Shown: positions 30,582-35,241, counted from the first letter of the stretch. The stretch is 64,000 bases of DNA from Minisyncoccota bacterium (GCA_022763365.1 JALEGN010000001.1:30514-94513); one strand, 5' to 3'. Translations and numbers: made by a program. The notes: a model not told the origin generated them from the sequence alone.

Positions 30582-30884
30582 TATAACAGTTTATTACATA
30601 TCGTAATTTGTTTTACGTTATCAAAAATTATTGATAGATATTTTCTAAAAGCATCTGATAATGTTGAGTATCTATGAAATAATTTATGTCCACTGGTCGA
30701 GCAGATTCTCCGGGATCGGGTAAACCCGATCCCGGGTGAGAATCCGCTCAAGTGAACGGTTTTCGGCTTGTTTATTGTCTAAGCCGAAACGACTAGGCGG
30801 AAGGTTTAATGTCTTTGCTTACCGCCATACGACTTTCTATTTACCTATATATTGTTATATGTAGGTATGTAATAAACTGTTATA
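30582..30884 (+). ncRNA. candidate RT-associated structured ncRNA (retron msr-msd-like), bracketed by a 19-bp inverted repeat
   Basis: IR tataacagtttattacata (30582-30600) pairs with tatgtaataaactgttata (30866-30884), 19/19 matching. AT-rich short hairpins (cgtaa..ttacg, tatcaa..ttgata) are followed by a GC-rich block of three stable hairpins (30704-30826). The first is a ~17-bp stem around ccgggatcggg-taaa-cccgatcccgg. Confidence 0.45.
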
Positions 30885-30894
30885 TAAGAAAGTT

Positions 30895-32130: not shown

Positions 32131-33803
32131 ATACTTTACAGCGACAAGTAAATACTTTAAAAAAACGTATGCAAATTAAAGTAGAGGAGCGACCTTTACG
32201 TTTTGATAAACAGAAAAAAGACTATATTAAAAAACTTTTTTTAGTGCAGAAAAAACATATCTTAAGGCTGCTTGCACTGGTTATTGGAATAAGTCTCATA
32301 GAGATAAGTGCCCCATTATTTCTTGATATCTTTTTGTCAAAGCACTCTTTTAATCTGAGGGCGAATACCTTGTTTGCCGCAGGTATAATCTTGTTTTTAA
32401 TAGTAATTATTTATTTAGTTATTAGTTATTTTGCTTTAGCAATTCAAAAAAGGCTGACATTAAATATTATTAATAAGGTGCGAGAAGATTGGTTACGTTT
32501 TTATATCAATAAGAAACCACTCACACTTAATAGTAAAGACAAAGGGAATGTTTTTGTAAAAATTAGCTATCATCTTTCGTTGTTACAAATGGGATTAGGG
32601 AATTCTTTATTTAGTTTTTTTCAATGGATATTATATTTTGGTGGAGTCTTAATAGTGAGTGCTATCATCGATATAAAATTACTCTCTATTTCATTAATTT
32701 TTATTCCAATAAATATTCTTATTGTTGGTATTAGTTATATTTTCTCCGCATACTATTTAGCCAAAGATCAAACTTTGTATTCAAAAATACTCAGGTATAT
32801 TTCTGATACCTTTGAGCGATTTGAATTAGTTAAATCATTTAATAAAGAAAATACATTCATTCGTGAGGTGAACGATATGATTGAGATTGATAATCATTTT
32901 CGTATTAAGCGTGAGATTGTACTTCGTTATGGAAATAATATTATTTTCGCCATACTTACATTACTCACCATAGGAACCTACATAATTAATTTATATAATC
33001 CAACCTTACTTGCATTTACTTCAACAAGTTCATTAGTTCAAATTCTTATTTTTGGACTCCATCTTCGTTTAGTTTATCTTAGTATGCGGATGGGCTTGTT
33101 TTATTTCCCTTTGAAACTAGGATTGTTTTTATCAGTTCCACCAACGATATTCTTTAAAAAAGGTAAGCATCTAAAGTCCATACAACATCTTGGTTTTCGC
33201 ACTCCTAAGGTGAAACTATTTACTAATGATTCATATCAAAAAAATATTCAGTTTGATTTTGAAAAAGGTAAAAATTATCTCATCCTTCATTCAAAAGAGG
33301 AACGATTAGTGAATATGAATCATGTATTTGCTGGTATTGCATCATATAGAAAAGGGATTCAATGGGTTGTTCACGCGAACAAACAGCGCTTACTGTATAG
33401 TCGTTTTTATGAGGCGCAAAAAAATATATTTTATATTCACAAAAACCTCTATTCTCATGGTTCAATATATGAACTTCTGAATAATCATAGTAACTTAGAA
33501 ACTCTTACTCAATATCCAGAATTTGATTTTATTTTTCAAAAAAGAAAATTTGTTGCTGATAACTATTCTCCAGAAAATTTTGACATTCAAGATCTCTTCC
33601 TAATTCAGGTCGCATATTGTTTGATGGCAAATCCTGACATAGTTGTCGTTGACGAATGTTATGCCGACATACATTATGACCGTATCAATGAGGGTATTGA
33701 TTTACTCAGATTAAAATATGATGGTATTCTCATAGTAAGTTCTCGAAACAACTCCCAAAATCAAGATAATTATCATGTCACTTATACACTTCGTAAAAAG
33801 TAA
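32127..33803 (+). CDS. polytopic membrane protein with a C-terminal degenerate ABC-ATPase-like domain (ABC-exporter-like pseudo-ATPase)
   Basis: A ~6-TM N-terminal half is followed by an NBD-like region. The Walker A position reads LILHSKEERLV (degenerate). The signature position reads QDLFLIQ in place of LSGGQ. Walker B IVVVDE is intact. The H-loop position reads IVSSR. The start overlaps the RT stop (ATGA). Confidence 0.6.
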   Translation: MNTLQRQVNTLKKRMQIKVEERPLRFDKQKKDYIKKLFLVQKKHILRLLALVIGISLIEISAPLFLDIFLSKHSFNLRANTLFAAGIILFLIVIIYLVISYFALAIQKRLTLNIINKVREDWLRFYINKKPLTLNSKDKGNVFVKISYHLSLLQMGLGNSLFSFFQWILYFGGVLIVSAIIDIKLLSISLIFIPINILIVGISYIFSAYYLAKDQTLYSKILRYISDTFERFELVKSFNKENTFIREVNDMIEIDNHFRIKREIVLRYGNNIIFAILTLLTIGTYIINLYNPTLLAFTSTSSLVQILIFGLHLRLVYLSMRMGLFYFPLKLGLFLSVPPTIFFKKGKHLKSIQHLGFRTPKVKLFTNDSYQKNIQFDFEKGKNYLILHSKEERLVNMNHVFAGIASYRKGIQWVVHANKQRLLYSRFYEAQKNIFYIHKNLYSHGSIYELLNNHSNLETLTQYPEFDFIFQKRKFVADNYSPENFDIQDLFLIQVAYCLMANPDIVVVDECYADIHYDRINEGIDLLRLKYDGILIVSSRNNSQNQDNYHVTYTLRKK

Positions 33804-35241
33804 ATTAACGCGTACTAAAAAGTATCTTCCAAAGATAGCTTTTTTTGCTGGGTGTGGAGTACTACTCCTTTTTATATTAAGTTTTATTTTTAATGGCAGA
33901 ATAGTTGTTCATTCAGAATATCAACCGAGAAAAGAAATAATTTCAGAATTACCTTTTGAGGCTGAAATATATTTTAACGATTTAGATAATCATAATGAGT
34001 TCGGTCAAAGAATTACCGATGTGATTACTAGCGCCAATGAATATATCGGTATTGCTATGTATTCATTTAATGATGAAAAACTTATCAAGCTACTGGAACA
34101 AAAACATCAATCTGGAATCGAGGTAGTGGTAATTCTTCCAAAAAATAAAGGTCATATTGAAAAAGGTTTATTTAGTGATACCTCATTTAAAATTCTCGAA
34201 GTTGGTGATGAACAAGAAACGGATGTAACCGATTCTTCGCTATCATCATTTATGCATCATAAATTTATCATTACTGATCCAGAGTTAGATAGTGGGGAAG
34301 TGTTATTTGGAAGTACTAACCTCACTGAGTATCAGCAAAAATTTGACTCAAACTTTTTTGTAGTAACTTCTGATAATCACATTAAACAAGCTTTTGTAGA
34401 TGAGTTTAGATTACTTGAACAAGGTAGATATAGTACGCGGAAATTTAAAAAGAATTTTGCCCCTTTTACGCTAAAAGGGCAGTGGAGTGATGGTTTTTTT
34501 GAGTTATGGCTCGGCCCTGGTTTTCGAAATAATAGTCTTAAGCAGCGAATGATTGATGCAATTAATGATGCAGAATCAACGATTGATATTATTGGTTGGC
34601 GGATTAATGATAGAGATATTTATCGAGCTTTACAATCAAAGGCATTAGAAGGAGTGACAATAAGGATTATCTTAGATGATTATTATATGTGGAATGATAT
34701 TTCTGTTGCCAGCAATAGAAATTCTTGGCACGAGAATATAACATTCATATCTGATTCATATAAGGATGTTCTCTTTCAGAATGATATTATTATGAAAAAT
34801 GAATACCTTCCAGACACCTTCAATTCATTTCTTCATCATCATACGATGATCATTGATGATACTATTCTCGTTGCAGGAAGTAATAACTGGGGTTACCGTG
34901 GTTTTTATTTAAACGATGAATTAGCTTTTGTTACTGACGATACATATCTTGTAAATCGTTATATCGAAGAATTTAATTATCTAGATAAACAATTCCTCGG
35001 GAGAGCTTTAAATGTACAGATTGATAATGAAGATAATCTTATTTTTAATCACAATATAAGTGATTACTACACTACAGTATATGTGGAGCAAAGTTATCCA
35101 GACTGGTTAGGGTATACATGTCAAAAAATCCTCCCGAATGAAGATAAAAAAATACAAGAAAAATGTATTACTGATACGACAAGGATATTTGTTCATGATG
35201 TCGATTATCAGTTGTATGGAAGTAGCTACTTATCTCGCTAA
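33775..35241 (+). CDS. phospholipase D / HKD-superfamily protein (Nuc- or cardiolipin-synthase-like) with an N-terminal TM anchor; the second HKD motif has His in place of Lys
   Basis: TM IAFFAGCGVLLLFILSFIF. HKD-1 HHKFIITD...GSTN. HKD-2 HHHTMIIDDTILVAGSNN (HxH(x)4D(x)6GSxN). Confidence 0.7.
   Translation: MSLIHFVKSKLTRTKKYLPKIAFFAGCGVLLLFILSFIFNGRIVVHSEYQPRKEIISELPFEAEIYFNDLDNHNEFGQRITDVITSANEYIGIAMYSFNDEKLIKLLEQKHQSGIEVVVILPKNKGHIEKGLFSDTSFKILEVGDEQETDVTDSSLSSFMHHKFIITDPELDSGEVLFGSTNLTEYQQKFDSNFFVVTSDNHIKQAFVDEFRLLEQGRYSTRKFKKNFAPFTLKGQWSDGFFELWLGPGFRNNSLKQRMIDAINDAESTIDIIGWRINDRDIYRALQSKALEGVTIRIILDDYYMWNDISVASNRNSWHENITFISDSYKDVLFQNDIIMKNEYLPDTFNSFLHHHTMIIDDTILVAGSNNWGYRGFYLNDELAFVTDDTYLVNRYIEEFNYLDKQFLGRALNVQIDNEDNLIFNHNISDYYTTVYVEQSYPDWLGYTCQKILPNEDKKIQEKCITDTTRIFVHDVDYQLYGSSYLSR

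What the first reader, a model, noticed from the sequence alone, without database searches (positions are those of the whole stretch)
30582..35241. Retron-like RT module with an unrecognised effector pair: RT + membrane pseudo-ABC ATPase + membrane-anchored PLD/HKD protein
Three genes are translationally coupled: the RT stop overlaps the next start as ATGA, and the second and third genes overlap by 29 nt. They sit directly downstream of an inverted-repeat-bracketed, hairpin-dense non-coding segment whose 3' repeat ends 11 nt before the RT ATG. The RT keeps catalytic Asp in motif 3 and DD in motif 5, but it has unusual VGDD and LPIT variants in place of YADD and PQG. Among the retron, Abi and DRT types I know, I do not recognise an RT plus degenerate ABC-like membrane protein plus PLD combination, so this is a candidate undescribed RT-based module, possibly anti-phage defence. 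The block is more AT-rich than the flanking dnaE and rnhB genes, consistent with horizontal acquisition. It is inserted between core replication and repair genes.
Basis: partly seen in the sequence, partly recalled or inferred. Interest (0 to 1): 0.9.

Follow-up and report, generated by a model that had tools for sequence, protein, structure and literature searches.

The report
Reverse-transcriptase module with membrane ABC–PLD partners

Summary
At 30570-35241 (+) lie a ~320-nt hairpin-dense non-coding segment closed by a long inverted repeat, then three overlapping genes: RT, an ABC-exporter-like protein with a dead ATPase domain, and a single-pass membrane protein with two PLD/HKD domains.

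All parts are co-conserved. I examined 37 related systems, found from either the RT or the ABC protein. Every one with enough contig carries all three genes, even where gene order is rearranged. Pairwise similarities of the three proteins co-vary (rho 0.8).

The upstream segment is a real RNA family. Two internal stem-loops show 91-93% pairing with compensatory changes in 15/18 and 9/10 pairs. A covariance model hit only upstream of RT genes, always on the RT strand.

The RT is not a retron RT. By sequence and predicted fold it is group-II-intron-like (GsI-IIC TM 0.77, then DRT9 and G2L4). No intron RNA, maturase domain or DGR repeats were found, and it fits no PADLOC RT family.

The family is small: about 50 clusters among 1.84 billion representatives.

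Best reading (~0.5): a new RT–ncRNA surveillance system of the retron/class-2-DRT kind, with a novel membrane effector pair whose PLD domain probably faces outwards. Defence is not demonstrated. I found no description in the literature searched.

The parts
30570..30600 (+). P1 5' arm of the ncRNA (closing stem; a1-like)
   Evidence: 31-nt inverted repeat at 87% complementarity with 30866-30896; exact core 30582-30600. An equivalent long-range repeat with a different sequence occurs in most related loci and exceeds 100/100 shuffles in 14 of 33.
30598..30621 (+). SL1, a short hairpin after the 5' arm
   Evidence: MFE fold. A short hairpin sits at the same place in most homologous ncRNAs. It was not tested separately for covariation.
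30622..30688 (+). SL2, a conserved three-tier stem-loop (outer AAUUAUU/AAUAAUU stem, middle stem, inner hairpin with CUGAUA loop); probable RT-recognition element
   Evidence: MAFFT alignment A2 of 17 loci: 91.5% of cells paired, 15/18 pairs with compensatory changes, 0/500 shuffles as good, slid controls 36-47% paired. Covariance model R1 scores this site 64.7 bits, E 4e-10. Frequent G-U pairs argue for RNA made from the + strand.
30689..30841 (+). Variable region of the ncRNA: three G+C-rich hairpins (about 30688-30757, 30758-30794, 30796-30826) plus a conserved single-stranded linker GACUUUCUAUUUAC; candidate template
   Evidence: MFE fold. Length (about 50-190 nt) and sequence differ between loci while the flanks are conserved. 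The template role is inferred only.
30842..30867 (+). SL3', the hairpin immediately before the 3' arm
   Evidence: MFE fold. In other clades the homologous hairpin has a conserved CCGUUUGG apex: 93.3% paired, 9/10 pairs with compensatory changes (A7). The window clade keeps the hairpin but with a UUGU loop and was not in A7.
30866..30896 (+). P1 3' arm (a2-like); overlaps the ribosome-binding region and the ATG of the RT
   Evidence: In related loci the 3' arm ends 4-44 nt before the RT start.
30895..32130 (+). Reverse transcriptase, 411 aa, group-II-intron-like, with active-site D147 and VGDD (230-233)
   Evidence: Pfam RVT_1. NCBIfam group_II_RT_mat scores 115.7 bits against a cutoff of 300. 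Family profile against PDB: GsI-IIC RT 1e-35. AF2 pLDDT 91.8. Foldseek GsI-IIC TM 0.77, DRT9 0.69. Invariant catalytic residues in 25 homologues.
32127..33803 (+). ABC-exporter-like membrane protein, 558 aa: six-TM type IV exporter domain plus a degenerate (non-catalytic) nucleotide-binding domain
   Evidence: Pfam ABC_membrane residues 50-309, with no ABC_tran hit. PDB matches to the ABCB1 and TM287/288 transmembrane domains. The NBD alignment shows Walker A lost in the window clade. Elsewhere Walker A is kept but the catalytic Glu is Asn, the signature motif is degenerate and the H-loop His is absent.
33775..35241 (+). Membrane-anchored PLD-superfamily protein, 488 aa: Lys/Arg-rich N-terminus, one TM helix, two HKD lobes (HxKx4D and HxHx4D), and a C-terminal beta domain with two conserved Cys
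   Evidence: Pfam PLDc_2 x2. NCBIfam NucT 5e-16, cardiolipin synthase 2e-10, DrmC 2e-10. Alignment of 25 homologues. AF2 pLDDT 84. Foldseek: vaccinia F13, bacterial PLD, PLD3/PLD4, PssA. Outward orientation is inferred from the positive-inside rule.

Best explanation
[quoted passage not shown] I think it works like the retron / class-2 DRT (for example DRT10/UG17) defence systems.

Proposed mechanism:
1. The RNA and the RT are probably transcribed together from a promoter just upstream (possible extended -10, TGtTATAAA, at 30534-30542).
2. The RT recognises the conserved stem-loops SL2 and SL3', which the long P1 stem holds together. It copies part of the variable region into cDNA.
3. The resulting RT-RNA-cDNA complex acts as a cytoplasmic sensor of infection or perturbed nucleic-acid metabolism.
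4. Its state is read by the cytoplasmic, non-hydrolysing nucleotide-binding domain of the ABC-like protein.
5. That protein opens as a leak and/or passes the signal through the membrane to the PLD enzyme tethered on the outer face.
6. The PLD attacks membrane phospholipid or nucleic acid, stopping the infected cell (abortive infection).

Shown computationally: the anatomy, the RNA structure, intact RT catalytic residues, the degenerate ATPase, the HKD motifs, strict co-occurrence and co-evolution.

Inferred: cDNA synthesis, the sensor role, signalling through the ABC-like protein, PLD orientation and substrate, and the defence outcome.
For: - Co-occurrence: all 33 of 37 related systems with enough contig carry RT + ABC + PLD, whether found from the RT or from the ABC protein down to 23% identity. 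The other four are cut by contig ends.
- The trio survives rearrangement: divergent in L027, L031, L034 and L038, convergent in L033.
- Pairwise similarities of the three proteins correlate at rho 0.80-0.81 over 25 systems.
- Each protein family is small and dedicated: 27, 26 and 10 close hits among 5.8 billion proteins, followed by a gap. About 50 RT clusters were found among 1.84 billion representatives.
- ABC and PLD genes overlap by 23-35 nt in most loci.
- ncRNA: SL2 and SL3' covariation. P1 repeats have a different sequence in each locus.
- The covariance model found 26 hits in 486 kb, all 100-300 nt (one second copy about 700 nt) upstream of an RT and on its strand, including six loci not in the seed.
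- The RNA stays with the RT when ABC-PLD is inverted (L031).
- The RT active site is intact and the fold is complete, fingers to C-terminal domain.
- Features typical of accessory or defence modules: 2-3 diverged paralogous copies per genome (L003; L011-L013); patchy occurrence (24 of 185,579 species genomes); varied genomic neighbourhoods; presence in a 62% G+C 5.47-Mb contig next to an IS; some neighbours matching SoFic, AbiEi/Eii, mad3/8 and PDC-S01 models.
- Precedent: DRT10 is a structured ncRNA + RT + transmembrane effector. Type I-A retrons pair an RT with an ATPase and a nuclease (abstract of PMC11974896).
Against: - There is no experimental evidence of any kind, and none for cDNA.
- Defence context is weak. 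Only about 10 of 140 neighbouring ORFs hit PADLOC models, and several of those are generic (UvrD-like, ABC ATPase-like, DprA-like).
- In the window's own clade the module sits stably between dnaE and rnhB.
- The PLD domain is predicted to lie outside the cytoplasm (positive-inside rule, conserved Cys pair in the C-terminal domain). That is an odd place for a nuclease effector meant to destroy intracellular DNA.
- Mostly CPR labels, plus pilin-like genes next to about a third of loci, could point to a lifestyle function instead.
- No relatives were found on viral contigs. This is neutral.
- The priming mechanism and the template cannot be read from sequence.
Confidence: 0.5

Rival explanations
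1. An envelope nucleic-acid handling machine tied to the epibiotic CPR lifestyle, not immunity. In this reading the RT makes a cDNA or RNA-DNA product. That product is passed to, or regulates, an ABC-exporter-like channel capped by an outward-facing PLD nuclease (topology like a T1SS ABC plus a membrane-fusion protein). The purpose would be export or processing of DNA, or control of DNA scavenging together with type IV pili.
For: - The PLD is closest by sequence to the nuclease NucT and to MitoPLD/Zucchini.
- Its next relatives outside the family are PLD proteins fused to ComEA-like helix-hairpin-helix domains.
- Structural matches include PLD3/PLD4. These are single-pass type II membrane 5' exonucleases with the same topology; that description is from my own knowledge.
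- N-in/C-out topology and a conserved Cys pair.
- Pilin-like N_methyl genes lie directly beside the module in about 10 of 28 loci.
- The distribution is mostly CPR by record title.
Against: - The ATPase is degenerate (catalytic Glu replaced by Asn, or Walker A lost), so active transport is unlikely.
- The module is rare and patchy within CPR and present in several diverged copies per genome. That is not the pattern of a core lifestyle function.
- Pilin genes are abundant in CPR genomes and are absent from the window locus.
- The module also occurs in a large 62% G+C genome.
- No ABC exporter is known to move DNA (my own knowledge).
Confidence: 0.2
2. The upstream structure is only a cis-regulatory leader. 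It would autoregulate RT translation, as the group II intron DIVa site does by binding its own RT at the start codon. The RT would then act on other substrates, for example in DNA repair like G2L4, with ABC and PLD as unrelated membrane partners.
For: - The 3' arm of P1 covers the ribosome-binding region and the ATG.
- The RT is group-II-like, and G2L4 is among its structural neighbours.
- DNA-metabolism genes flank several loci: dnaE and rnhB here, UDG in L004, Fpg and Pif1 in L039.
Against: - A 190-330-nt multi-domain RNA with two conserved stem-loops and a hypervariable insert is far more than a leader needs.
- Tandem duplicate ncRNAs occur in L023 and L015.
- Several variable regions contain short direct repeats reminiscent of DRT templates.
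- The characterised stand-alone bacterial RTs with an upstream structured RNA that I know of use it as template or scaffold (and my own knowledge).
- Repair does not explain strict linkage to two membrane proteins.
Confidence: 0.12
3. A decayed or unusual mobile group II intron (or other retroelement) that merely sits next to an ABC transporter and a lipid-metabolism PLD gene.
For: - The best family-model and structural matches of the RT are group II intron RTs.
- The module has the lowest G+C in the window.
Against: - No group II intron RNA domain was found, even at E <= 10 or at gathering threshold.
- No GIIM/maturase Pfam domain is present, whereas the next-best true intron RTs carry it.
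- The score of 115.7 bits is far below the 300-bit equivalog cutoff.
- ABC and PLD are dedicated families found only with this RT.
- The three proteins co-evolve.
- The segment is not repeated elsewhere in the window.
Confidence: 0.03

Closest known systems
DRT10 / UG17 (class 2 UG/Abi RT system; formerly G2L3)
   Same: It is a tripartite logic: an independently folded structured ncRNA with a basal stem encoded upstream, a compact RT with no extra enzymatic domain, and a transmembrane effector (bioRxiv 10.64898/2026.04.29.721553). The UG17 model matches all 25 family RTs (best E 6e-33).
   Different: - The effector here is a pair (pseudo-ABC + PLD), not SLATT.
- The RT scores only about 72 bits on the UG17 model.
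- The ncRNA is a different family.
- No cDNA product or phage trigger is known.
- Hosts are mostly CPR by record title rather than Proteobacteria.
Retrons, especially type I-A (Ec78/Ec83: RT + ATPase + HNH nuclease) and type IV (Ec48: RT + 2TM protein)
   Same: The ncRNA lies directly 5' of the RT and is closed by long inverted repeats like a1/a2. It has conserved 5' stem-loops and a variable hairpin region. The partners combine an ATPase-fold protein with a nuclease-fold protein or a membrane protein.
   Different: - The RT is not of the retron lineage. Ec86 scores E ~1e-3 against the family profile. Retron RT models hit only 9-11 of 25 members, weakly. No retron appears in the top 50 fold matches.
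- No branching-G context can be identified.
- An extra conserved hairpin sits next to the 3' arm.
- The ATPase fold is membrane-embedded and catalytically dead.
Group II intron RTs and domesticated group-II-like RTs (G2L4; CRISPR-associated RT-Cas1)
   Same: These are the closest sequence and fold relatives: GsI-IIC RT 1e-35 and TM 0.77, Cas6-RT-Cas1 4e-28, G2L4. Like G2L RTs, this one is free-standing and lacks intron RNA.
   Different: - No ribozyme, maturase or endonuclease domain.
- VGDD instead of YADD/YIDD.
- LTG instead of PQG in motif 4.
- A small residue at the position aligned with the second Phe of DLEKFFD.
- Obligate linkage to an ncRNA and two membrane proteins.
UG26 (uncharacterised class 2 UG/Abi RT group)
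   Same: It is the best specific PADLOC RT model (96 bits for the window RT; best E 2.6e-42 among the 25). Protein size is similar, about 400 aa.
   Different: The score is far below what a member would give. UG26 was reported as sometimes linked to a YcjD/Vsr-like endonuclease, with no ABC or PLD partner mentioned (PMC9226505).
PLD-superfamily nucleases (NucT/Nuc, Zucchini/MitoPLD, DISARM DrmC, PLD3/PLD4)
   Same: It has the HKD fold. The best sequence matches are NucT and MitoPLD. DrmC models hit. PLD3/4 share the N-terminal single-pass anchor with a two-lobed catalytic domain on the non-cytoplasmic side (for the fold match; the topology of PLD3/4 is from my own knowledge).
   Different: - The two lobes are in one chain, and the second motif is invariably HxH rather than HxK.
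- Some clades carry an extra C-terminal beta domain.
- The substrate is unknown; lipid-acting PLD, F13 and PssA match equally well by fold.
Type IV ABC exporters with degenerate nucleotide-binding sites (e.g. TM287/288; CFTR-like gated channels)
   Same: It has a six-helix exporter transmembrane domain followed by an NBD. The non-canonical catalytic residue is reminiscent of degenerate sites.
   Different: As a presumed homodimer, both sites would be degenerate. Walker A is missing altogether in the window clade. No transport role is evident.

Membership tests
Retron | RT belongs to the retron RT lineage | tested here: not met
   Family profile against PDB: Ec86 RT E 1e-3, versus 1e-35 for a group II RT. 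PADLOC retron RT models (RT_II-A, RT_IX) match only 11 and 9 of 25 members, weakly. No retron is in the top 50 Foldseek hits.
Retron | msr-msd ncRNA directly upstream of the RT, closed by a1/a2 inverted repeats | tested here: met
   P1 inverted repeat at 30570-30600 / 30866-30896. Equivalent repeats are found in related loci. This is an architectural resemblance only.
Retron | 2'-5' branched msDNA primed from a conserved G next to a1 | not testable with these tools
   This needs msDNA isolation and debranching. No conserved G context could be assigned from the alignments.
Group II intron | Ribozyme RNA (domains I-VI, especially domain V) surrounding the RT ORF | tested here: not met
   Rfam search of 30300-35400 at E <= 10 and of the whole window at gathering threshold gave no intron family.
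Group II intron | RT/maturase reaching the family threshold and carrying a GIIM maturase domain | tested here: not met
   TIGR04416 scores 115.7 bits against a cutoff of 300. No PF08388 is present in any of the 27 close homologues, whereas the next, distant hits have it.
Diversity-generating retroelement | Template repeat / variable repeat pair near the RT | tested here: not met
   The non-coding segment has no second copy anywhere in the 64-kb window at permissive blastn settings.
Class 2 UG/Abi RTs (DRT2, DRT9, DRT10/UG17, UG26...) | RT sequence falls within a defined UG group | tested here: inconclusive
   All 25 members hit the UG26, UG17, UG4, UG27 and Drt9 models, but weakly (window: 96, 72, 76, 56 and 47 bits). 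The generic RT and RT-Cas1 models score as well. No tree with reference UG sequences could be built here.
Class 2 UG/Abi RTs (DRT2, DRT9, DRT10/UG17, UG26...) | Compact RT without extra enzymatic domain, plus a structured ncRNA encoded upstream that templates cDNA | tested here: inconclusive
   The compact RT (411 aa) and the conserved upstream ncRNA are met. The templating itself cannot be tested with these tools.
ABC transporter (type IV exporter) | Six-TM exporter domain | tested here: met
   PF00664, residues 50-309, E 7.5e-13. Matches to the ABCB1 and TM287/288 transmembrane domains.
ABC transporter (type IV exporter) | Catalytically competent NBD: Walker A, Walker B Asp-Glu, LSGGQ signature, H-loop | tested here: not met
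   Window: no Walker A and no ABC_tran hit. Most homologues: Walker A present, but Asp-Asn instead of Asp-Glu, a degenerate signature and no H-loop His.
PLD superfamily (HKD) | Two HxKx4D...GSxN motifs forming one active site | tested here: met
   Motif 1 is MHHKFIITD...GSTN, invariant. Motif 2 is HHHTMIID...GSNNW, with His in place of Lys in all 25 homologues. The predicted fold is two-lobed PLD. The Lys-to-His change means full catalytic competence is not certain.
Known anti-phage defence system (PADLOC catalogue) | Component proteins match models of one catalogued system | tested here: not met
   The RT hits only generic or weak models. The ABC protein has no hit at all. The PLD hits DrmC only partially, 65.6 bits over one lobe.

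The most novel reading that the evidence does not exclude
The module is a trans-envelope device with no precedent. A cytoplasmic reverse transcriptase makes cDNA from its own RNA. That cDNA, or its signal, is handed through a non-hydrolysing ABC-exporter-like channel to a PLD3/4-like nuclease on the outer face of the membrane. Reverse-transcribed DNA would then be exported or processed at the cell surface of epibiotic CPR bacteria, possibly to act on a host cell or on incoming DNA. This would be a different thing from an abortive-infection switch inside the cell.
Probability: 0.08. Interest if true: 0.95.

Novelty: new variant of a known kind. Interest (0 to 1): 0.72.

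Why it matters
If confirmed, this adds a new branch to the bacterial RT-plus-ncRNA systems.
- The RT is domesticated from the group II intron lineage, independently of retrons.
- The ncRNA family has not been described.
- The effector pair has no counterpart in catalogued defence systems: a catalytically dead ABC-exporter fold coupled to a membrane-anchored, probably outward-facing PLD enzyme.

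It would be one of the few candidate RT-based systems specific to CPR/Patescibacteria, whose phage defence and envelope biology are poorly known.

It would also raise a testable question: how is a cytoplasmic RT-RNA complex coupled to an enzyme on the other side of the membrane?

The compact, high-confidence group-II-like RT with an unusual active site (VGDD, a small residue at the aligned steric-gate position) and a defined RNA partner may interest tool developers.

Tried and rejected
- Rfam search of the locus at E <= 10 and of the whole window at gathering threshold. Only chance hits near the module; tmRNA and two tRNAs elsewhere.
- DGR hypothesis. No template/variable repeat in the window.
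- Group II intron hypothesis. No ribozyme, no maturase domain, sub-threshold score.
- Retron membership of the RT. Rejected.
- Phage-borne origin. No relatives in 2.9 million viral contigs.
- Structure-aware MAFFT (Q-INS-i) was not installed. I therefore aligned SL2 and SL3' separately with plain MAFFT and hand-assigned structures.
- The idea that the variable region is generally G-poor and unstructured holds only for some loci (L012, L015, L011, and by eye L029, L034, L038). Overall composition is G 0.18 against C 0.23, so I make no claim.
- Defence-island enrichment. Only weak.
- A conserved fourth protein. Clustering of neighbours found only pilin-like N_methyl genes, in about a third of loci.
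- Literature searches for an RT + ABC + PLD system, for CPR RT defence systems, and for new DRT/UG numbers found no matching description. DRT11 is UG5 RT-nitrilase, not this system.
- Exact-match inverted-repeat detection misses interrupted P1 stems. As a result only 14 of 33 loci pass the strict shuffle test, although MFE folds show P1 in more.

Full report
**1. Observation**

The coordinates and features hold. ORF listing gives:
- dnaE, 27275-30457 (-)
- an RT ORF, 30895-32130 (+)
- an ABC-like ORF, 32127-33803 (+); its ATG overlaps the RT stop as ATGA
- a PLD ORF, 33775-35241 (+); 29-nt overlap with the ABC ORF
- RNase HII, 35248-35844 (+)

Pfam finds RVT_1, ABC_membrane only (no ATPase domain), and two PLDc_2 domains.

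The 437-nt gap between dnaE and the RT contains an exact 19-nt inverted repeat (30582-30600 / 30866-30884). It extends to 31 nt at 87% complementarity. The repeat encloses several hairpins, three of them G+C-rich in a 31% G+C locus. The segment folds at -123.8 kcal/mol against -70.3 +/- 5.7 for shuffles (z = -9.4).

The module is the most A+T-rich 4.7-kb stretch of the window (0.309 against a median of 0.352). The difference is real but modest.

**2. Co-conservation**

- A search of 5.8 billion proteins with the RT returned only 27 close relatives (E <= 1e-62). A gap then follows, down to true group II maturases at E ~1e-8.
- Contigs carrying these relatives and 26 loci from GTDB species genomes were scanned by tblastn with the three window proteins. 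Every locus with enough sequence has all three genes.
- The reverse test gives the same result. The ABC protein has only 26 relatives. The three most divergent ones with long contigs (23-30% identity) all sit beside an RT and a PLD.
- The PLD family is equally small. Its next relatives are PLD proteins fused to ComEA-like HhH domains.
- In total I saw 37 systems. 33 have the trio. Four are cut by contig ends directly after the RT or ABC gene. There is no counter-example.
- Gene order changes but the set is kept. ABC-PLD is divergent from the RT in L027, L031, L034 and L038, and convergent in L033.
- Normalised pairwise scores of RT, ABC and PLD correlate at rho 0.80-0.81 across 25 systems. The p-values are inflated by shared ancestry.
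- An exhaustive HMM search of 1.84 billion cluster representatives found about 50 full-length family clusters (>225 bits). Below that is a continuum of intron and CRISPR RTs at about 150 bits.

**3. The non-coding RNA**

In most loci a long-range inverted repeat has its 3' arm 4-44 nt before the RT start and its 5' arm 180-330 nt upstream. Its sequence differs from locus to locus. With exact matches only, it exceeds all 100 shuffles in 14 of 33 loci.

MFE folds share one plan:
- P1 closing stem
- a short hairpin, SL1
- a three-tier stem-loop, SL2
- a variable region of 50-190 nt
- a hairpin, SL3', with a CCGUUUGG apex
- the P1 3' strand

Covariation evidence:
- SL2, plain MAFFT alignment of 17 loci: 91.5% of cells paired, 15 of 18 pairs with compensatory changes. 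No shuffle out of 500 matched it, and slid controls gave 36-47% paired.
- SL3', 18 loci: 93.3% paired, 9 of 10 pairs compensatory.
- G-U pairs are common, which fits an RNA transcribed in the RT direction.

A covariance model of SL2 searched against 486 kb on both strands gave 26 hits. All are upstream of an RT and on its strand. Six are in loci not used to build the model. L023 and L015 each have a second copy. The alignment fitted to the model keeps 91% pairing.

The divergent subfamilies (L024, L027, L029, L031, L034, L036, L038) were missed by the model. By eye they show the same plan in their folds.

Close relatives of the window (L040, L041, L001) conserve P1 by covariation. They also conserve SL2, the linker GACUUUCUAUUUAC and SL3', while the middle hairpins change.

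No terminator-like site separates the RNA from the RT. A possible extended -10 (TGtTATAAA, 30534-30542) is my reading of the sequence.

**4. The RT**

- The family profile matches group II intron RTs best (GsI-IIC 1e-35). Next come Cas6-RT-Cas1 (4e-28), DRT9 (1e-19), DRT2 and G2L4. Retron Ec86 scores only 1e-3.
- NCBIfam's group II equivalog scores 115.7 bits against a cutoff of 300.
- PADLOC gives only moderate hits (generic RT, UG26, RT-Cas1, UG4, UG17) for all 25 members.
- The AlphaFold model is confident (pLDDT 91.8). It superposes over its whole length on GsI-IIC RT (TM 0.77), then on DRT9 and G2L4.
- No intron RNA, no maturase domain and no DGR repeats were found.
- Invariant residues include D147, Y151, G197, G201, P203, N210 and YRRVGDD.
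- Aligned to GsI-IIC, DISSYSD replaces DLEKFFD. The position of the second Phe is Ser, Cys, Thr or Ala in nearly all members, with an invariant Tyr one residue earlier. From memory, that Phe is the steric gate F143. RVGDD replaces RYADD. I did not examine this in three dimensions.

**5. The ABC-like protein**

- The transmembrane half is a type IV exporter domain.
- In most homologues the C-terminal domain keeps Walker A (GxxxxGK[ST]) and the Walker B Asp. However, Asn replaces the catalytic Glu, the signature is degenerate, and there is no H-loop His.
- The window clade has lost Walker A altogether.
- It is therefore at best a nucleotide-binding, non-hydrolysing protein. That fits a switch or channel better than a pump. 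This last step is inference.

**6. The PLD protein**

- All homologues have a Lys/Arg-rich N-terminus, one hydrophobic helix and two HKD lobes. The second motif is invariably HxH instead of HxK.
- The window clade adds a ~90-residue beta domain with two conserved Cys.
- The positive-inside rule and the Cys pair suggest that the catalytic part faces outwards. This is inference.
- Sequence relatives are nucleases: NucT, MitoPLD and DrmC.
- Fold relatives include both lipid enzymes (F13, PLD, PssA) and the membrane-anchored exonucleases PLD3/4. The substrate stays open.

**7. Distribution and context**

- Record titles name mostly Patescibacteria lineages (Paceibacteria, Peregrinibacteria, Magasanikiibacteria and others). 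A few MAGs are labelled Gammaproteobacteria, Omnitrophota or Flavobacteriaceae; I could not verify those labels.
- One system lies on a 5.47-Mb, 62% G+C contig, so not a CPR genome. An IS is inserted just upstream of it compared with a second assembly.
- One MAG has three diverged copies (L011-L013), and one contig has two (L003).
- Neighbourhoods vary. In the window's clade, dnaE-(pilin)-module-rnhB is conserved.
- Pilin-like genes abut about a third of loci.
- Of 140 neighbouring ORFs, a handful match SoFic, AbiEi/Eii, mad3/8, PDC-S01 and ShosA models.
- No relatives were found on viral contigs.

**8. Interpretation**

Every anatomical feature parallels the RT-ncRNA-effector systems:
- retrons;
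- class 2 DRTs, notably DRT10 (structured ncRNA + RT + SLATT);
- type I-A retrons (RT + ATPase + nuclease).

The patchy, multi-copy, horizontally mobile distribution also fits an accessory immune module. I therefore favour (about 0.5) an RT-ncRNA sensor that controls a membrane effector pair.

What is new is the RT lineage, the RNA family and the effector pair. Especially new is the prospect of a cytoplasmic sensor controlling an enzyme on the outer face of the membrane through a dead ABC fold.

Rivals:
- an envelope DNA-handling function linked to CPR biology (0.2);
- a mere leader RNA, with the RT acting elsewhere (0.12);
- a decayed intron (0.03).

The remainder is unassigned.

**9. Novelty**

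Searches of the paper library found no RT + ABC + PLD system. Surveys of UG/Abi and G2L RTs mention no such association. NCBI names the proteins only generically.

I classify it as a new variant of a known kind (RT-ncRNA systems). Function is unproven.

Noticed in passing
window 57154-57228 (-): A tRNA-Ile with anticodon UAU (tat). Most bacteria read AUA with a lysidine-modified CAU tRNA, so this is uncommon.
   Followed up: no
window 52082-52458 (-): A tmRNA gene with predicted tag peptide ASPYTVNSFAIA (ARAGORN; Rfam RF00023, 110.5 bits).
   Followed up: no
L001 7079-7651; L003 7179-7742; L011 6056-6646; L041 5043-5615; L004 12484-13122; L006 12455-13111; L023 11209-12266: Type IV pilin-like (N_methyl, GFTLxE) genes lie immediately upstream of the ncRNA or just downstream of the PLD gene in about 10 of 28 loci. 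There is none in the window locus. This could be a loose functional link or simply the abundance of pilin genes in CPR genomes.
   Followed up: partly
L023 6586-6654 and 6818-6887; L015 2590-2662 and 3004-3075: Two copies of the ncRNA SL2 element lie upstream of a single RT. In L023 each copy sits inside its own inverted-repeat-closed unit. These loci may therefore carry two alternative ncRNAs.
   Followed up: partly
L036 4014-5467, compared with L037: In a 5.47-Mb, 62% G+C contig (not a CPR genome) the complete module is present. Compared with a second assembly of the same locus, it has an IS (HTH_Tnp_1 + rve) inserted just upstream of the ncRNA.
   Followed up: partly
ncRNA variable regions of L011, L020, L012, L029/L027, L007: Short direct repeats occur inside the variable region: TCGTACCTCAT x2 in L011, TTACGYCAAGGGTA x2 in L020, (AACTR)n in L012, and CTCTGAC x3-4 in L029. 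They are reminiscent of the repeat motifs that program iterative cDNA synthesis in DRT10 and DRT2. No such repeat is seen in the window's own ncRNA.
   Followed up: no
proteins P0121, P0123, P0129, P0145: Proteins of 810-860 residues match the RT family profile in two separate stretches. They may be tandem RT-RT fusions or mis-called adjacent genes. Their genomic context could not be retrieved.
   Followed up: no
window RT residues 147-153 (about 31333-31353): Motif A reads D-I-S-S-Y-S-D. In the HMM alignment, the residue aligned with the second Phe of GsI-IIC DLEKFFD is Ser here and small in almost all homologues. From memory that Phe is the steric gate. An invariant Tyr sits one position earlier. 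Sugar selectivity of this RT may be unusual.
   Followed up: partly
window 35248-35844; L001 12319-12945: RNase HII follows the PLD gene with a 6-nt gap in the window. In L001/L009 its longest ORF overlaps the PLD gene. It may be co-transcribed in this clade, and an RNase H next to an RT module is suggestive. The link is absent from other clades.
   Followed up: no
window 36940-38019 (+): A 359-aa ORF looks by eye like a NusB-like N-terminus fused to a NUDIX-box region (GETKEEGTIREVKEETN) and a C-terminal Rho_N/SAP-like motif. This was not checked with any tool.
   Followed up: no
L027 4822-6570 (-): The ABC-like gene of this system is split into two ORFs (326 + 243 aa). This may be a frameshift or a decaying copy.
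   Followed up: no
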